From Octopus vulgaris (Eukaryota), in assembly GCA_951406725.2 (NCBI GenBank), contig OX597816.1, forward strand, positions 93,744,001-93,808,000: a stretch of DNA of 64,000 nt, read 5' to 3'. A program made the position numbers and the translations under genes. Of this stretch, positions 4,591 through 53,170 are shown piece by piece. The stretch's first letter is position 1; the number at the start of each line of letters is the position of its first letter. Under the pieces are notes generated by a model. That model was not told where the DNA came from. It did not search any database and saw only the letters and a list, made by a program, of their open reading frames with translations.

Positions 4591-6383
4591 GTCAGTAATG
4601 CACGGACACTGGACGAGTGCATGCAGGACGGTTTTATCGCCCTGCGCACACCTCGGACAAGTCCGTCCGACAGCTCTTCTGTGTCTGTAGAGCTTGTCTC
4701 GAACCGGCAGGGTTCCTCGGTAGCACTGCCAGGCCAGGGATTTCTGGTAGTTATCCATAGGTTGGCCGAAAGTCCTCCGGAAAAGACCAGTTGATTCTTC
4801 CCGACGCCCAGATTTTTCCCCGTGTACGTCGTAGCTCTTTCACTCCACTAGTCTCCTCTAGAACTCCATAGTGGAACTTCCACTGACCGCATTACCCGAC
4901 TGTAGCGCTTCCCGACATCCCGCGCAGGCGGTATTAGATGACGAAAGCGACGTACGCATTCGCCACCTCCGCTCGATCCTTCAGGGCCTGCTTCTTCTCT
5001 GCCCCTATATGGGTGAGATTGCCTAACCTACTCGTCACCTCCCCACAATTCTTATCCACCTGGACGTCTGGACCAAACTAGATCCCGAGCAATTTAACCG
5101 GTCCTTCCGTCCAGCGCCCTACAATACTGTCGGTTGGCATGGATCTGCCGCTCCAGGTGCCGAGCTGCAGGCCCACCGACTTCTCCTGGTTGATCTTTGT
5201 TCCCGTCATCGCTTCGTACTCCCTTAGAGATGTCCAATACTATTACTCAGACATCGTCCGCGTAAACCGACACGAAACTACCGCATCCTAGATCAAGCGG
5301 GATGCCCCTCGAAACATCCAGCTTCCGCAGCAATGGCTCGTGAGCCAGTACGTACAATAGAGGCAAGAGTGGGCATCCTTGACAGGCCAAACGAGCGATG
5401 CTAAATGATTACGATAGGTGGCCATTTACTTTGACGACCGAACAGATGTCGCTGTACATTGCGACAATCCAGCCTCTGAAAACGGGACCAAAACCCGCTG
5501 CTGGTGGTCGACGTTATGAAAAGCTTTCGATTGGTCCAAATTGATTAGAGCCCCATCCATGCCAAGCTCCTTGCCCACTTTCTCTATGATGTAACGCGTG
5601 GGGTGGAGGTTGTCGTGGATAGTTATGTTTGGGATAGCGCATGTATGCGCATCACCAACCAACTTATTGACAAGTGCCAATCTCTTGGTTAACCCTATGG
5701 CCAAAATCTTATAATCTGCATTCAGCAGATTTATAGGGCTAAACTTATCAATTTTGTCCCCCTTGTTCGGGTCCTTCCTCAACAGCACCACCACTCCACG
5801 GTTGACAGTACTGGAAGTTCTCCCGTTCTGCTGCTAGGTGTGGTAGACGCCTGCCAAGAGACCATCGAACAAGTCTGGCATATGAAAATAAAGCTCGAAG
5901 AGCAGACCATCCTGCCGAAGAGACTTCTTTTTTGCGCAGCTCGTCATCGCGTCCCGTATATCTTCGTCTGTTATCGGCATTTCGCAGAACTCCGCATCCC
6001 TGGCTGAGAGGTGCGGCACGCCACTGAGATAGGAGGTGAAATTCACCACCGTTCTAGAACCACCACACGCTCCATACAGTTCGGCGAAGTGATGCTGAAA
6101 TTCTGCACACGTCTGCTTGTACTCGGTTATCATGTGCCCATCACAGCTCGCCAAAGACCGAATTGTTGCTTTGTTTCCACATAGCGTCTCTGCCACCCGG
6201 GTCCATCAAATGGCTTTCGTCCCCTACCGTCTCAGCGTATGCGCCTTAGCTCTGACAACGGAAACTTTGTGTTTGGCATTGAAGAATTGATCAAAAGCCT
6301 TTCAATAAAAATGTAAAGAAGGCCGAAAAGATTTCAAACGCTTCTTCAACTTACGGAGCACCAAAATTTCACGACTTCGCAGT
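4590..6383 (-). mobile_element. L1/Tx1-clade LINE ORF2 fragment (RT plus C-terminal zinc knuckle), decayed
   Basis: VVLLRKDPNKGDKIDKFSPINLLNADYKILA, ALINLDQSKAF, QGCPL, YADDV (5250-5264) and CPRCAQGDKTVLHALVQC near 4600-4660. Many stops and frameshifts. Confidence 0.9.
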
Positions 6384-9651: not shown

Positions 9652-9911
9652 TAGTGCACTATATTAATATGCTGTATAGTGAAACTGTACACCACACCGC
9701 GTTAAAAAATTGTTGTAGCCAGCCATTATAAATAGACCTGTAGCCAGTCGACGAAAGAAGGTCAGGAGGTTGAGAGTACGTGTAGACTGTGTTGATAGTC
9801 GTGTCTGTGTTGATATAGTAATTATACAGAGTTATATGTTATAACGCTCCAACCTTTTGAGGACAATAACACTGTACGACTGATATCTTCGGAATATAAC
9901 AATATCTGTCA

Positions 9912-10054
9912 GAGCGACAACCATCGTCAAAAGACAGATACAAAAGTGATAAAGACCGCTTTACAACGTAATATAATTTTCATAGTACAAACAGTATCCA
10001 CTAAAAGCTCAATATGCTGGGTACAGTGGATACATGCACGCATATATACACAAA
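9912..10054 (-). repeat. Distal part of the left arm of an inverted paralog (partner 12934-13075)
   Basis: Its reverse complement (tttgtgtatatatgcgtgcatgtatccactgtaccc...gacgatggttgtcgc) aligns to 12934-13075 at roughly 85-90% identity by eye. Confidence 0.9.
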
Positions 10055-10690
10055 CTAGCAGTATCACCCGGCGTTGCTCGGGTTTGTAAGGGAAATAACT
10101 ATATAAGCATTTTTAGAGAGTTATAGCCAAAAAATAGCAAAAATGCATTAAAAATGGAAACAATATGATGGTAATTTTTTTTTAAATCGTTGACTCATCG
10201 TAGACATTTTTAGAGAGTTACTTCCCTTATATAATAGCGAAAAAATGCATTAAAATGGAGAAAAAAACGATGGTAATTTTTTTTTTAAATCGTAGACTCA
10301 TGTAGACGCTTTCTTAGCCATTTCTGTTTTGGTGTCTTCAAGCCATGAAGTCGTTGTTCTAAAAGAACACTGGTCTCCTTGACAACGCATTACGACGTTG
10401 ATTTCCTTACACTCCCTTCCCCACAGGTGCAGGTGTGAACGTGGACGCCAACTCCGCCGCCATCGACACACGAAAAATTATGCATTAAAATGGAATAAAA
10501 AATGATGTTAAATTATTTTTAAAATCGTAGACTCATCGTAGACGCGCGCTAATATTCAGACGGGCTCGATATGAATCACGACTATAAGCTACCCGAATTT
10601 GGTTAAACTGCACCGCAAAATGTGGGAGTAGTTAGGAATCTAAATCGAAGGGGACAGACACTCACACAATTACAGTTTTATATATATAGA
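10055..10690 (-). mobile_element. Non-autonomous Helitron family H1, copy 1
   Basis: 5' TCTATATATATAAAA, 3' hairpin plus CTAG. Near-identical to 40192-40704 apart from an internal duplication and a 37-bp deletion. Confidence 0.9.
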
Positions 10691-10699
10691 TATACATAG

Positions 10700-11065
10700 C
10701 GCAGTAGTGGTGAGATGTGACAGCAAAGAAAAGCATACATTCACTCTCTGCATGCAATTAGACTCGGAAAGTTCGTGAGGAACCCATTGACCCAATTTGC
10801 TGACTTTTCCGATAGCACACAGGTGTCAATGAATGGTTGAATGACCAAATCCAAGCTTCTCTGCTAGTTCCTCAACAGTTACGATGATATTTTGTTCCAC
10901 CAGGGTTTTCAGGATGTCCTTGTCGAGTTCTACAGATCTTTCAGGATGAGGCTCGTCTTCTAGGCTGTAGTTTATGGCTCGGGATTTCTGGAACCACCAT
11001 TGACACTGCCTTACGCTTATTGTCCAATCCCCATATACTGCATTAATATTTCTTGTACTTTGCAC
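10700..11065 (-). pseudogene. Mariner transposase N-terminal (HTH) fragment, no TIRs
   Basis: STRNINAVYGDWTISVRQCQWWFQK...SLEDEPHPERSVELDKDILKTLVEQN...TVEELAEKLGFGHSTIH*HL...KLGQWVPHELS (WVPHEL motif). Confidence 0.9.
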
Positions 11066-11222
11066 ACATTTATATTCTGTTATTCTTTTATATGTTTCAG
11101 CCTTGAGGTTGTGGCCATGCTGTCTGTCTGTCTGTATGTATATATGTATATGTATGTGTGTGGACAATAATATTTTCAACAGATGTGTTGCAAATGTATC
11201 TGATTGTTCTCAAGCTTCAATA

Positions 11223-11345
11223 CTGTGTGTGTGTGTATGTGTGTGTGTGTATGTATGTATGTATATGTATGTATGTATGTATATGTATGTATGTATGTAT
11301 GTATGTGTGTATGTATGTATGTGTGTGTGTATGTATGTGTGTGTA

Positions 11346-11378
<33 letters not shown>

Positions 11379-11418
11379 ATGTATGTATGTATGTATGTAT
11401 GTATGTATGAGTGTATGT
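11223..11418. repeat. (TG)n/(TATG)n microsatellite
   Basis: Directly visible. Confidence 0.95.
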
Positions 11419-11429
11419 TTACTTTATTA

Positions 11430-11872
11430 CTAACACAAGCCACTACGGTTATTTAATGAAAGTCTTCCTCAAATCACTCTCTCTCTCGCTATTTTCACTC
11501 ACTCTTAGCTCTTAGCTTCCCATACATTTTACTCATGTATCTATCAGCGTCATAGACAGAATACTTTCAGTTTAGTCTTCCTCAAATCACTCTGTCGCTA
11601 TTTACTTTCATTTTATTCGTTGCCCACTGTGTGTGTGCGTTTGCGTGTGGTGTAAACCAGACTAAGAAAAGCATTTGACACACACACCAGAATGTGAGTT
11701 TTCTGTAAATTTTGCTTAATTGGAGTTTAAATTTTAAAAACTGGACCTGGCATGACGCGATGCATTGTACTCTTAAAAATGCTAGGTAAATTGTAATTGA
11801 AGAAATCGTATATTGTAGATTTGTATAACTCCCAAAGGGAGGCAGATAAAATCTGCCTTTTATAATAAGAGA
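11430..11872 (-). mobile_element. Helitron family H2 module with a degenerate 3' end
   Basis: 5' TC start and an internal direct repeat agtcttcctcaaatcactct (11461, 11574). The putative 3' end reads TTAG instead of CTAG and has no good hairpin. Confidence 0.55.
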
Positions 11873-12547
11873 TGATGGCTGCAGACTCGTGTTCGAGCAT
11901 TACCATTGCCTGATCGAAAGTTCTACACATGCGAAGGCTACAACCATCCATTTTTGAGATAGGTCTTCCTTTTTTTGAAGCAATGCCTGTGCATGACGAT
12001 TTTTTATAGTGGGGGAAAGGATTTGCATAAATCCAATCCCACTTTTAGGACATGGATGACATAAACTCGAAAAGAAGAATTAGTCTATATCATCGAATAT
12101 TGCCAGTGTCGTAGGTTTTCTCTCAGAGTTTCCTTCTCCCAAAGAGATGCTGTGACAACAACCGAAGGACCTCCCACTCTCAGTGGACAAACTGCGCGCC
12201 TGGAAACCAAACCAAGGTATTTCCACGTCCCCGTGAATACATACATGCATACATACACTTGTACGTACATGCAAAAATACATTGTTGGATGGCCGTTGAT
12301 TTCTCATGAGCTCTCCCGCTCTTTGAAGTGTCTTATTTTTCGTCTTGCAGGGTGCCCAACAATCACCCTCTTCACCAAGCAAGCTTGGTGGGGTTGCCAC
12401 TTTAGTCGCCAATGAACCGACCATGCAACAGGTTGTACTGGGTTACATGTTACCAGTAGCGCAGAAGAGCGAACTTGCAAAACCTGACGAGCAACCATAC
12501 ATACATAGAGACAGACAGACTGAGCGACTGACTGACAGGTAGACATT

Positions 12548-12775
12548 TTTTACTTTTTATCTTTCATTTGATTCAGTCACTAGACTTCGGCCATGCTGGG
12601 GCACCGCCTTGAAGAATTTTTAGCCGAACTAATCGACATCAGTACATCTTTTAAGTGTCTGGTGTTTGCTCTAGGGGACTCTTTCATTGAACAACTAGGT
12701 TAGGGGGACGTAAACAAACCAATACCGGCTATCAAGCGGTGGTGGAGCACAAACGCAGGCACAAAGACACACACA
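12548..12775 (-). mobile_element. SINE family B, 3' half
   Basis: Reverse-complement match to family B. Confidence 0.85.
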
Positions 12776-12886
12776 TACATGCATACCTACCTACCTACCT
12801 ACCTACCAACATACATACATACATACATACATACATACATACATACATACATACATACATACATACATACATACATACATACATTC

Positions 12887-13075
12887 TTTCGTTCAGGTGA
12901 TGGCAACGCTCGAACACGAGTTTGCAGCCATCATTTGTGTATGTATGCGTGCATGTATCTACTGTACCCAACTTATTGGATTTTTAGTCGATAATGTTTG
13001 TGCTATGAAAATTATATTATGCTGTAAAGCGGCCTTTTACCACTTTTGTATCTGTCTTTTGACGATGGTTGTCGC
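12887..13075 (+). repeat. Uninterrupted right arm of the inverted paralog (Helitron empty site)
   Basis: 12887-12933 matches the reverse complement of 11873-11920, and 12934-13075 matches the reverse complement of 9912-10054. Confidence 0.9.
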
Positions 13076-36330: not shown

Positions 36331-36709
36331 TAGGCACAGGAGTGGCTGTGTGGTAAGTAGCTTGCTTACCAACCTATGGTTCTGGGTTCAGTTCCACTGC
36401 GTAGCACCTTAGGCAAGTGTCTTCTACTATAGCCTCGGGCCGTCTAAAGCCTTGGTAGACGGAAACTGAAAGAAGCCCATCGTATATATGTATATATATA
36501 TATATGTGTGTTTCTGTGTTTGTGTTTGTCCCTCCAACATCGCTTGACAACCGGTGGTGGTGCGTTACGTCCCCTAACTTAGCGAAAGAGACCGATAGAA
36601 TAAGTACTAGGCTTACAAAGAATATGTCCTGGAGTCGATTTGCTCGACTAAAAGGTGGTGCCCCAGCATGGCCGCAGTCAGATGACTGAAACAAGTAAAA
36701 GAGTAAAAG

Positions 36710-36712
<3 letters not shown>
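36331..36712 (+). mobile_element. SINE family B, followed by (GATA)n
   Basis: Matches 52758-53170. An older 3' half copy precedes it at about 36130-36320. Confidence 0.92.
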
Positions 36713-38689: not shown

Positions 38690-39255
38690 AATAATAATAA
38701 TAATTGTGTACAGTGCTCAGGTGCACTACAACTCATCTAAAGTGTATATATAAGCAGGTGTAGTTTCGACGGATTTCGGGAAGCATGAGGGCCTTAAAGG
38801 ATGCAGTGTCATGGCAGTCAACAATTGATGCAGGCAGTTTATTCCACGCTTCAGCAACCCTGAGCGTGAAAAAATGTTTCCGAAAGTCATGGGAGCTGTG
38901 CTGTTTTCTGACTTTGTAGGCATGTCCACGTGTGTTAGACACATGGAGGTCAAAAAGGTGTTCAGTGTTGTTGTTGGTGAGGTGGTTGATAACCTTGTGG
39001 GTGTTTACCAAGTCCGTCGCCAGACGCCGGAGCTTCAGTGAATCCATGCCCAGGGAAACAAGGCGCTCAGAATATGGTAGGTGTCTGATGGAGGGTATGC
39101 GTTTGGTTGCACGTCTCTGGACAGATTCCAGGAGGTCAATGTTCTGAGCAAGATAGGGATTCCAAACTGATGATGCGAATTCCAAGTGTGGTCGTACCAT
39201 AGCTGTATACAGTTTTAAATAGATGGCTGGAGAGCGGCTAACAAAAGTCTTGCTA
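38690..39255 (-). mobile_element. CR1-clade LINE, 5'-truncated 3' end with open RT C-terminus
   Basis: LYTAMVRPHLEFASSVWNPY...LESVQRRATK...TRGHAYKV...RKHFFTLRVAEAWNKLP, with an (ATT)n tail. Confidence 0.93.
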
Positions 39256-39818
39256 TGTAGCGAGGTATCTTATTTAGAACGAATACTCAACGAGATGCAG
39301 CTTGCACTGGTGGATGCAATACAACTAGCTGTGCATTACTCCCACCCGTAAAGGACAGATACAGGATGGGTGGAAACGATACTTGTGTTGAATAAAAATT
39401 CATGTCAACTCAATTTTCCGTTTCTTTTTCTTTCATTCATTATAATCTCAATGAACACTGCAGGATTCCTGACGTAGGACCAGTGACATTATAGCATAAC
39501 TGGATGACACCGGGTTGCTTAAACGGTGAAGAAACTTCTTAAGATTTTGCACGTCTTCAGAGACTGACAGAATGGAAAGTGGAAGGTTTCTGCAAATCAT
39601 GGACATGGAACAGAGTGGATTCTGCTAAAGGCATCTAAGTGGCCAAGTGTTAAACTGAGTATTAAGCCGAACAGTGGATTAAGTCTATCGCGCAAGTGTT
39701 CTCTCCTCTACAAGTTCCACCCCAACATTTAACTTTATAATTTTTTTTGAGAAGTTTAACTTAAATATAAAGGCTAAATCTAATTTTAAGTTATCAAATC
39801 ATTTTGATTTTTCATTAC

Positions 39819-40191: not shown

Positions 40192-40704
40192 CTAGCAGTA
40201 TCGCCCGGCGTTGCTCGGGTTTGTAAGGGAAATAACTATATAAGCATTTTTAGAGAGTTACTTCCCTTATAGATGCCAATTCGGGCTTTCTTAGGCATTT
40301 CTGTTTTGGTGTCTTCAAGCCATGAAGTCGTTGTTCTAAAAGAACGCTGGTCTCCTTGACAACGCTTTACGACGTTGATTTCCTTACACTCCCTTCCCCA
40401 CAGCTTCACGAGGGAGGGAAGAAGGGGGAAAAGCAAACAGGTGCAGGTGTGACCGTGGACGCCAACTCCGCCGCCATCGACACACGAAAAATTATGCATT
40501 AAAATGGAATAAAAAATGATGTTAAATTATTTTTAAAATCGTAGACTCATCGTAGACGCGCGCTAATACTCAGACGGGCTCGATATGAATCACGACTATA
40601 AGATACCCGAATTTGGTTAAACTGCACCGCAAAATGTGGGAGTAGTTAGGAATCTAAATCGAAGGGGACAGACACTCACACAAGTACAGTTTTATATATA
40701 TAGA
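40192..40704 (-). mobile_element. Non-autonomous Helitron family H1, copy 2 (513 bp)
   Basis: A|TCTATATATATAAAA...CCCGAGCAACGCCGGGCGATACTGCTAG|T, with no TSD. Confidence 0.92.
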
Positions 40705-52757: not shown

Positions 52758-53170
52758 GGCGCAGGAGTGGCTGTGTGGTAAGTAGCTTGTCTACCAACCA
52801 CATGGTTCCGGGTTCAGTCCCACTGCGTGGCACCTTGGGCAAGTGTCTTCTACTATAGCCTCGGGCCGACCAAAGCCTTGTGAGTGGATTTGGTAGACGG
52901 AAACTGAAAGAAGCCCGTCGTATATATGTATATATATATATGCGTGTGTGTGTTTCTGTGTCTGTATTTGTCCCCCTAGCATTGCTTGACAACCGATGCT
53001 GGTATGTTTATGTCCCCGTTACTTAGCGGTTCGGCAAAAGAGACCGATAAAATAAGTACTGGGCTTACAAAAGAATAAGTCCCGGGGTCGAGTTGCTCGA
53101 TTAAAGGCGGTGCTCCAGCATGGCCGCAGTCAAATGACTGAAACAAGTAAAAGAGTAAAAGAGTAAAGAG
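52758..53170 (+). mobile_element. SINE family B (tRNA-derived CORE-type), full-length reference copy
   Basis: tggctgtgtggtaag A box, gggttcagtccc B box, accttgggcaagtgtctt CORE-like domain and a (GAGTAAAA)n tail. TSD agtaata at 52751-52757 and 53171-53177. Confidence 0.95.

What the first reader, a model, noticed from the sequence alone, without database searches (positions are those of the whole stretch)
9912..13075. Composite Helitron with captured DNA and its own empty site preserved 1 kb away
Seen: 12887-13075 is an inverted paralog of two separated pieces, 11873-11920 and 9912-10054. The right copy reads ...gcagccatcA|Tttgtgta... The left copy has 1818 bp (11872 to 10055) inserted at exactly that A|T with no TSD, starting TC and ending hairpin-CTAG. 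The insert contains an H2 Helitron module with a decayed terminator (TTAG near 11430), then microsatellite, a SINE tail and a TIR-less mariner fragment, then a complete H1 Helitron that also occurs alone at 40192-40704. Known: Helitrons insert at A|T and can bypass weak terminators and transduce flanking DNA. Inference: a single end-bypass event joined two Helitron families and moved ~740 bp of intervening genome.
Basis: partly seen in the sequence, partly recalled or inferred. Interest (0 to 1): 0.78.

Follow-up and report, generated by a model that had tools for sequence, protein, structure and literature searches.

The report
Young chimeric Helitron family, polymorphic insertion
This is one copy, absent from some other individuals, of a 1.8-kb jumping element with about 770 copies in this genome; it joins the start of one rolling-circle transposon, a dead transposon fragment and a whole second rolling-circle element, and was likely assembled elsewhere by read-through, a known kind of event.

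Summary
The anatomy is real: 1,818 bp (11872 to 10055, minus strand) sit between A and T without duplication, and 12886-13075 is an 89% identical inverted copy of the target. The whole composite is a young family: 768 exact cargo/H1 junctions genome-wide, copies a median 0.9% from their consensus, with unrelated flanks and head-to-tail tandems. Two public runs hold the true empty allele, so this insertion is polymorphic. The 'H2' module is the first 313 bp of a RepHel-coding Helitron (A) plus an antisense scrap of a third Helitron (C). The 'decayed terminator' is not supported. The mariner cargo was already about 7% decayed, older than both Helitron ends, which favours capture of dead genomic DNA at an ancestral locus; no donor locus was found, so nesting stays possible. 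The same A head sits on at least five different cargo/inner-Helitron junctions, and 17 of 20 unselected A-headed elements end in the borrowed H1 terminus. Chimeric Helitrons of this type are described in bats and maize. Verdict: new member of a known kind, moderate interest.

The parts
10055..11872 (-). Whole non-autonomous chimeric Helitron, 1,818 bp, TC...CTAG, between A and T
   Evidence: about 770 copies; empty allele in two runs
11560..11872 (-). 5' head (313 bp) of RepHel-coding Helitron A
   Evidence: 98.7% over 313 bp to L233, 96.7% over 273 bp to L213; L213 frame has Helitron_like_N and PIF1
11435..11559 (+). Antisense fragment of the 5' region of Helitron C; not a terminator
   Evidence: 82-85% to L212 and L229 on the opposite strand; fold -0.6 kcal/mol
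11121..11434 (-). Cargo: short unique stretch, two microsatellites (11226-11418, 11121-11161) and a spacer
   Evidence: TRF mask; same order in sibling copies
11073..11122 (-). Cargo: 3' tail of a SINE-like repeat (SINE label recalled, not from a library)
   Evidence: 76% to window 53116-53165 and 36664-36710
10710..11061 (-). Cargo: dead mariner transposase fragment (second HTH to just past the WVPHEL motif, one stop); longer family members keep about 300 bp more of its 5' part
   Evidence: Pfam HTH_48; translation; 6.4-8.1% from mariner family consensus
10055..10690 (-). Inner H1 Helitron (636 bp) with its own TC start; supplies the hairpin and CTAG end
   Evidence: free-standing precursor type at L320
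11873..11920 (-). Target, 5' flank: 3' end of a dispersed retroposon-like repeat; insertion is where its (TATG)n tail begins
   Evidence: 24 dispersed copies run A|T into the tail
9914..10054 (-). Target, 3' flank: tail remnant, about 50 bp unique, start of a second dispersed repeat
12886..13075 (+). Older local inverted duplicate of the target (89%), without the insert
40192..40704 (-). Solo H1 Helitron, 513 bp, a different subfamily form from the inner H1

Best explanation
The 1.8-kb insert is a recent, polymorphic copy of a pre-formed non-autonomous Helitron family that likely arose elsewhere, when rolling-circle copying begun at a terminator-less Helitron A head ran through dead genomic DNA and stopped at the hairpin-CTAG of a downstream H1 Helitron. 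Shown: family of about 770 copies, A|T targets, tandems, empty allele, origin of head and inner module, cargo older than both ends. Inferred: the read-through itself; the later order of deletions and the head exchange; mobilisation in trans by a RepHel protein that nicks at the outer TC, peels a single strand to the H1 terminator, circularises it and inserts it at A|T (mechanism taken from Helraiser work, untested here). Which RepHel acts is not shown; A matches the head but every sampled A copy is broken.
For: 26 of 29 other best-hit loci carry the whole element with different flanks. 768 exact cargo/H1 junctions; 30 of 30 cargo-end loci continue into H1. Median 0.9% from consensus, n=38. 64 of 65 non-tandem 5' flanks are A, 71 of 72 3' flanks are T, and 11 of 75 full elements are in head-to-tail tandems. 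In runs X2 and X19 one 319-bp contig joins 9906-10054 directly to 11872-12042. Head is 98.7% identical to autonomous-type L233; inner H1 is 97.6% identical to solo H1 over 421 bp in the undeleted form L251. The mariner cargo is 8.0% from its family consensus, like 25 free copies (mean 8.5%), so it was dead before either young end bracketed it. The cargo is a collage of unrelated decayed repeats, as ordinary genome is. Read-through when the hairpin is missing is shown for Helraiser (PMC4778049, passages).
Against: No donor locus: the one exact cargo-end match not followed by TC is a composite with a point change; a donor whose next base is C, or with a mismatch, would be missed. Heads are exchanged between lineages, so a young head does not date the capture. 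No intact A frame in 22 copies examined, so the matching mobiliser is not in hand. The filled allele in X1 and X20 is seen by only 25 and 17 letters, under the tool's 31-letter rule, and X1 may be the source sample.
Confidence: 0.65

Rival explanations
1. Nesting: an H1 element inserted in the same orientation inside an older, longer A-headed element that already carried the cargo, and its terminator cut that element short.
For: Helitrons here do land in and beside each other (L006, L007, L026; the Helitron C scrap). Nested origin of multi-terminus elements is proposed for maize (PMC3288121 section 12). Heads are swapped, so the cargo could be an old passenger.
Against: No H1-free carrier among 769 exact cargo-end matches tested at the next base or among 30 read in full. 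The cargo would still need a capture step earlier.
Confidence: 0.25
2. Template switching or gap repair stitched the modules together without read-through.
For: Junctions show short shared sequence, as at the head/Helitron C join; many internal deletions and one head exchange.
Against: The cargo pieces are colinear in all copies, and the inner H1 keeps a clean A|TC start, as expected for a real insertion into the cargo locus.
Confidence: 0.07
3. One reading: an H2 element with a decayed terminator at this locus bypassed it once and moved about 740 bp of neighbouring genome; or the parts were inserted here one by one.
For: The modular look and the A|T junction are real.
Against: The same composite stands at about 770 sites. 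The empty allele lacks all 1,818 bp at once. The window form is a derived, deleted variant. No terminator near 11430.
Confidence: 0.03

Closest known systems
HelibatN539 compound Helitron of bats (PMC4224331, passages read; cites the Tempel 2007 model)
   Same: 5' end of one Helitron, 3' end of another, captured DNA between; then amplified as a unit.
   Different: There the parental locus was found and the cargo is a host gene region. Here the cargo is dead repeats, the two ends come from different families, and no donor was found.
Maize multi-terminus Helitrons such as helitron_mc2 (PMC3288121, abstract and section 12)
   Same: High-copy elements with internal termini, built stepwise, losing internal sequence.
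   Different: Maize examples hold internal pseudo 3' ends. This element holds an intact internal 5' start and no internal 3' end.
Helraiser (PMC4778049 and PMC5876387, passages read)
   Same: TC and CTAG ends, A|T target, hairpin terminator, head-to-tail junctions, read-through capture.
   Different: Helraiser is a reconstructed autonomous element tested in cells. This one is non-coding, natural and polymorphic; its mobilisation was not tested.
Octopus vulgaris Helitrons in a repeat annotation (PMC13282606, passages and one supplement row)
   Same: Reports 84 Helitron families, 8 of them recently active with 178 insertions.
   Different: The passages seen give counts, not structures. I did not see the library, so this family may already be in it. 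That the window is octopus is my inference from recalled repeats and genome size; I did not tie it to any assembly.

Membership tests
Canonical Helitron (non-autonomous) | 5' TC end | tested here: met
Canonical Helitron (non-autonomous) | 3' CTRR end with a short hairpin about 10-12 nt upstream | tested here: met
   CTAG; hairpin -5.5 kcal/mol ending 11 nt before the end
Canonical Helitron (non-autonomous) | Insertion between A and T without target duplication | tested here: met
   64 of 65 and 71 of 72 flanks; empty allele joins without extra bases
Canonical Helitron (non-autonomous) | Termini shared with a RepHel-coding element | tested here: met
   Head shared with A; last 36 bp 86-89% to family B; Pfam Helitron_like_N and PIF1 in both
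Canonical Helitron (non-autonomous) | Head-to-tail junctions or tandem arrays | tested here: met
   11 of 75 full elements; junctions printed
Canonical Helitron (non-autonomous) | Mobilisation by a RepHel through a circular intermediate | not testable with these tools
   needs a transposition assay or circle PCR
Compound (end-bypass) Helitron | 5' and 3' ends from two different elements | tested here: met
   head from A; inner H1 exists free-standing; A's own end differs
Compound (end-bypass) Helitron | Parental locus holding the cargo as genomic DNA | tested here: inconclusive
   none found; exact-match search in one assembly only
Compound (end-bypass) Helitron | Bypassed terminator of the upstream element still visible | tested here: not met
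   no hairpin near 11430; the stretch is a Helitron C scrap. The head is truncated, not bypassed at a weak end
Helentron (features recalled) | T|T target and subterminal inverted repeats | tested here: not met
   target is A|T; subterminal repeats were not searched separately

The most novel reading that the evidence does not exclude
This genome runs a head-swapping economy of Helitrons. The 5' head decides which transposase moves an element, 3' terminators are cross-read, and old H1 modules are repeatedly re-launched by recruiting a Helitron A head. At least five independent cargo/inner-head junctions carry the A head, 17 of 20 unselected A-headed elements end in the borrowed H1 terminus, and the inner start almost never spawns solo copies (29 of 30 composite-type H1 modules are inside composites; the one solo is precursor-like). 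With polymorphic insertions and near-identical RepHel copies with long unbroken frames (family B), it would be a natural, currently active animal Helitron system in which end specificity can be tested directly.
Probability: 0.4. Interest if true: 0.55.

Novelty: new member of a known kind. Interest (0 to 1): 0.33.

Why it matters
As a single locus it is ordinary: a polymorphic non-coding transposon insertion inside other repeats. As a family it is a clean, young example of Helitron chimerism with about 770 copies (roughly 1.4 Mb) whose parts can each be traced. It amplified a dead mariner fragment, which would mislead repeat annotation into counting young mariner activity. The wider pattern, one head on many borrowed tails, offers a natural test of which end sets transposase specificity, and the long-frame RepHel copies are candidates for naturally active animal Helitrons.

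Tried and rejected
Donor search: one exact match not followed by TC proved to be a composite with a point change; its wider flanks were fetched but not analysed further. Decayed terminator near 11430: rejected. Independent H2 family with its own weak end: rejected; of 40 A-headed loci, 34 end in the H1 terminus, 4 in A's own, and 2 showed no end within 6 kb (the first 20 were chosen as unresolved within 1.5 kb, the second 20 were unselected: 17, 2, 1). Paralog as one arm of a terminal inverted repeat: not supported; it is a junction of two dispersed repeats found whole only here. Intact A transposase: none in 22 copies; longest frame 1,351 aa; assembly errors cannot be excluded. Run X3 was uninformative: no junction contig listed, tables cut. 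Earlier findings: none for this genome. Literature: five searches showed no listing describing this family; the library lacks most subscription papers and I did not see any repeat library. No host gene was evident from long frames in the window, which does not exclude short exons.

Full report
Observation. The insert runs from 11872 to 10055 on the minus strand, is 1,818 bp long, starts TC, ends CTAG and lies between A and T with no duplication. The stretch 12886-13075 aligns in reverse to 11920-11872 (88%) and 10054-9914 (89%), with 20 mismatches and 1 gap in 190 columns. A genome search found the whole 190 bp only here among 40 scored hits; its two ends are separate dispersed repeats. The insertion point is where the 3' end of a retroposon-like repeat meets its (TATG)n tail, seen in 24 dispersed copies. 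The paralog is thus a local inverted duplication about ten times more diverged than the insert's family, and it shows the target sequence rather than a vacated site. The genome (G000) has 2.8 Gb in 227 contigs. That it is an octopus is my inference from recalled repeats and size; no call shows it.

It is a family, not a local event. Of 29 other best-hit loci for the 5' 448 bp, 26 carry the whole composite with unrelated flanks, 2 run off the locus edge inside H1, and 1 is interrupted (best hits are a biased sample). All 40 scored hits for the cargo-H1 stretch are 99-100% identical (self included). Exact counts: 2,881 5' termini, 768 cargo/H1 junctions, 776 composite-type inner H1 junctions. 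Over the 3' kilobase, 37 copies from pattern searches plus the window copy lie a median 0.9% from their consensus (mean 1.5%, raised by six copies with a deletion; window copy 1.1%). Among 75 full elements held, 11 are in head-to-tail tandems; 64 of 65 other 5' flanks are A and 71 of 72 other 3' flanks are T.

The insertion is polymorphic. Five of 24 listed runs were laid. In X2 and X19, from two studies, one 319-bp contig aligns to 9906-10054 and then to 11872-12042, sharing one base: the empty allele with all 1,818 bp missing. X1 and X20 have contigs that enter the element by 25 and 17 letters, which suggests the filled allele but is under the tool's 31-letter rule; X1 may be the source sample. 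X3 gave no junction contig.

The head. A Pfam search found 150 scored RepHel matches. Two of 20 fetched loci (L213, L230) begin with the same head. L213 is 6.8 kb, has a 1,351-aa frame with Helitron_like_N and PIF1 and a terminator of its own that differs from H1's. In 20 more copies the head was found in 16 and that terminator in 18; none has one unbroken frame. The window head is 98.7% identical to L233 over 313 bp. The next 125 bp (11559-11435) match the 5' region of a third RepHel element, C (L212, L229), on the opposite strand at 82-85%, where the sequence goes on differently. The proposed TTAG terminator lies beyond this scrap and folds at -0.6 kcal/mol, against -5.5 for the true end. 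So the head is truncated; it never had a weak end here.

Cargo and inner element. The mariner piece hits HTH_48. Against a majority of 25 free copies it is 8.0% diverged, the free copies 8.5% on average. By pairwise alignment, 88 composite copies give 6.4-8.1% and 24 free copies a median 9.9%. The free copies were best hits, so their values lean low. Both Helitron ends are within about 2.5% of free-standing relatives, so the mariner was dead when bracketed. Of 94 composite copies held, 18 keep about 300 bp more mariner; 13 of these carry the head type of L213, while 68 short copies carry the L233 type. The window form is therefore derived: a deletion and a head exchange came after the capture (order inferred). 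The inner H1 lacks about 38 bp relative to the solo copy at 40704-40192 and has a longer 3' part; 2 of 94 copies keep the 38 bp. Of 30 H1 starts sampled, 22 are solo and none of these has the 636-bp form. Of 30 composite-type H1 modules, 29 are inside composites and one (L320) is solo and precursor-like.

The wider pattern. The A head is not specific to this cargo. Among 40 A-headed loci, 34 end in the H1 terminus, 4 in A's own and 2 showed none; for the 20 unselected ones the split is 17, 2, 1, and 6 are the mariner composite. They fall into 10 clusters by their middles, with at least five distinct cargo/inner-head junctions using different H1-like starts. A second RepHel family, B, has 15 sampled copies about 99% identical, frames of 1,120-1,744 aa, and an end 83-89% like H1's, but a different head; it is 64% identical to A in protein.

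Mechanism. Shown: family, targets, tandems, empty allele, source of each module, relative ages. Inferred (0.65): at an ancestral locus a terminator-less A head lay upstream of decayed repeats and an H1 copy; copying began at the outer TC, ran through and stopped at H1's hairpin-CTAG; the product spread as a unit through circles, as shown for Helraiser (PMC4778049 and PMC5876387, passages). Against: no donor was found, head exchange weakens dating by the head, and no intact A transposase was seen. The main rival is nesting (0.25): H1 inserted into a longer carrier and cut it short.

Comparison and verdict. Every canonical Helitron feature that could be tested was met. Compound Helitrons using two elements' ends are described in bats (PMC4224331, passages) and multi-terminus elements in maize (PMC3288121, abstract and section 12). 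A repeat annotation of Octopus vulgaris lists 84 Helitron families, 8 recently active (PMC13282606, passages and one supplement row); I saw no structures there and did not see its library. Five searches listed nothing on this family. It is a new member of a known kind; interest 0.33. The boldest reading left open is a head-swapping system in which the 5' end sets specificity and 3' ends are shared (probability 0.4).

Noticed in passing
L214-L228 (e.g. L220; G000 contigs C1-C11): RepHel Helitron family B: about 6.1 kb, copies about 99% identical, frames of 1,120-1,744 aa without stops; a candidate active autonomous family.
   Followed up: partly
L212, L229; G000:C29:27.64-27.83 Mb: RepHel Helitron C: 1,518-aa frame in L212; its first bases match the H1 start; several copies cluster on C29.
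   Followed up: partly
L093, L108, L109, L110 (element 330-720): Another A-headed composite whose cargo translates to a transposase-like frame; it looks piggyBac-like from memory, not tested against a library.
   Followed up: no
L136, L155, L156, L122: A-headed elements with 166-bp tandem repeats, an H1-like start, a RepHel helicase fragment and A's own 3' end: the reverse chimera.
   Followed up: partly
L121 element 1119-1375: A 257-bp near-palindrome (about 90% match to its own reverse complement in sister copies) is carried as cargo in another A-headed family.
   Followed up: no
L028, L019, L026, L036/L037, L040/L041, L058: Head-to-tail tandems of the composite, up to three or more units; some junctions lack two bases of the head.
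   Followed up: partly
L006: An H1 end in the opposite orientation abuts the composite 465 bp from its start; the rest of the composite is not within the locus.
   Followed up: no
L127 and L140 (G000:C1, 7.56 and 8.52 Mb): Two composite copies with the same flanks on both sides, so a segmental duplication or assembly duplicate rather than two insertions.
   Followed up: no
window 9660-9975: Unidentified dispersed repeat (68-77% to L070, L080, L081, L088) forming the 3' flank.
   Followed up: partly
window 5429-5833 (-) and 38736-39269 (-): Short frames that look like LINE reverse-transcriptase fragments (recalled, not searched).
   Followed up: no
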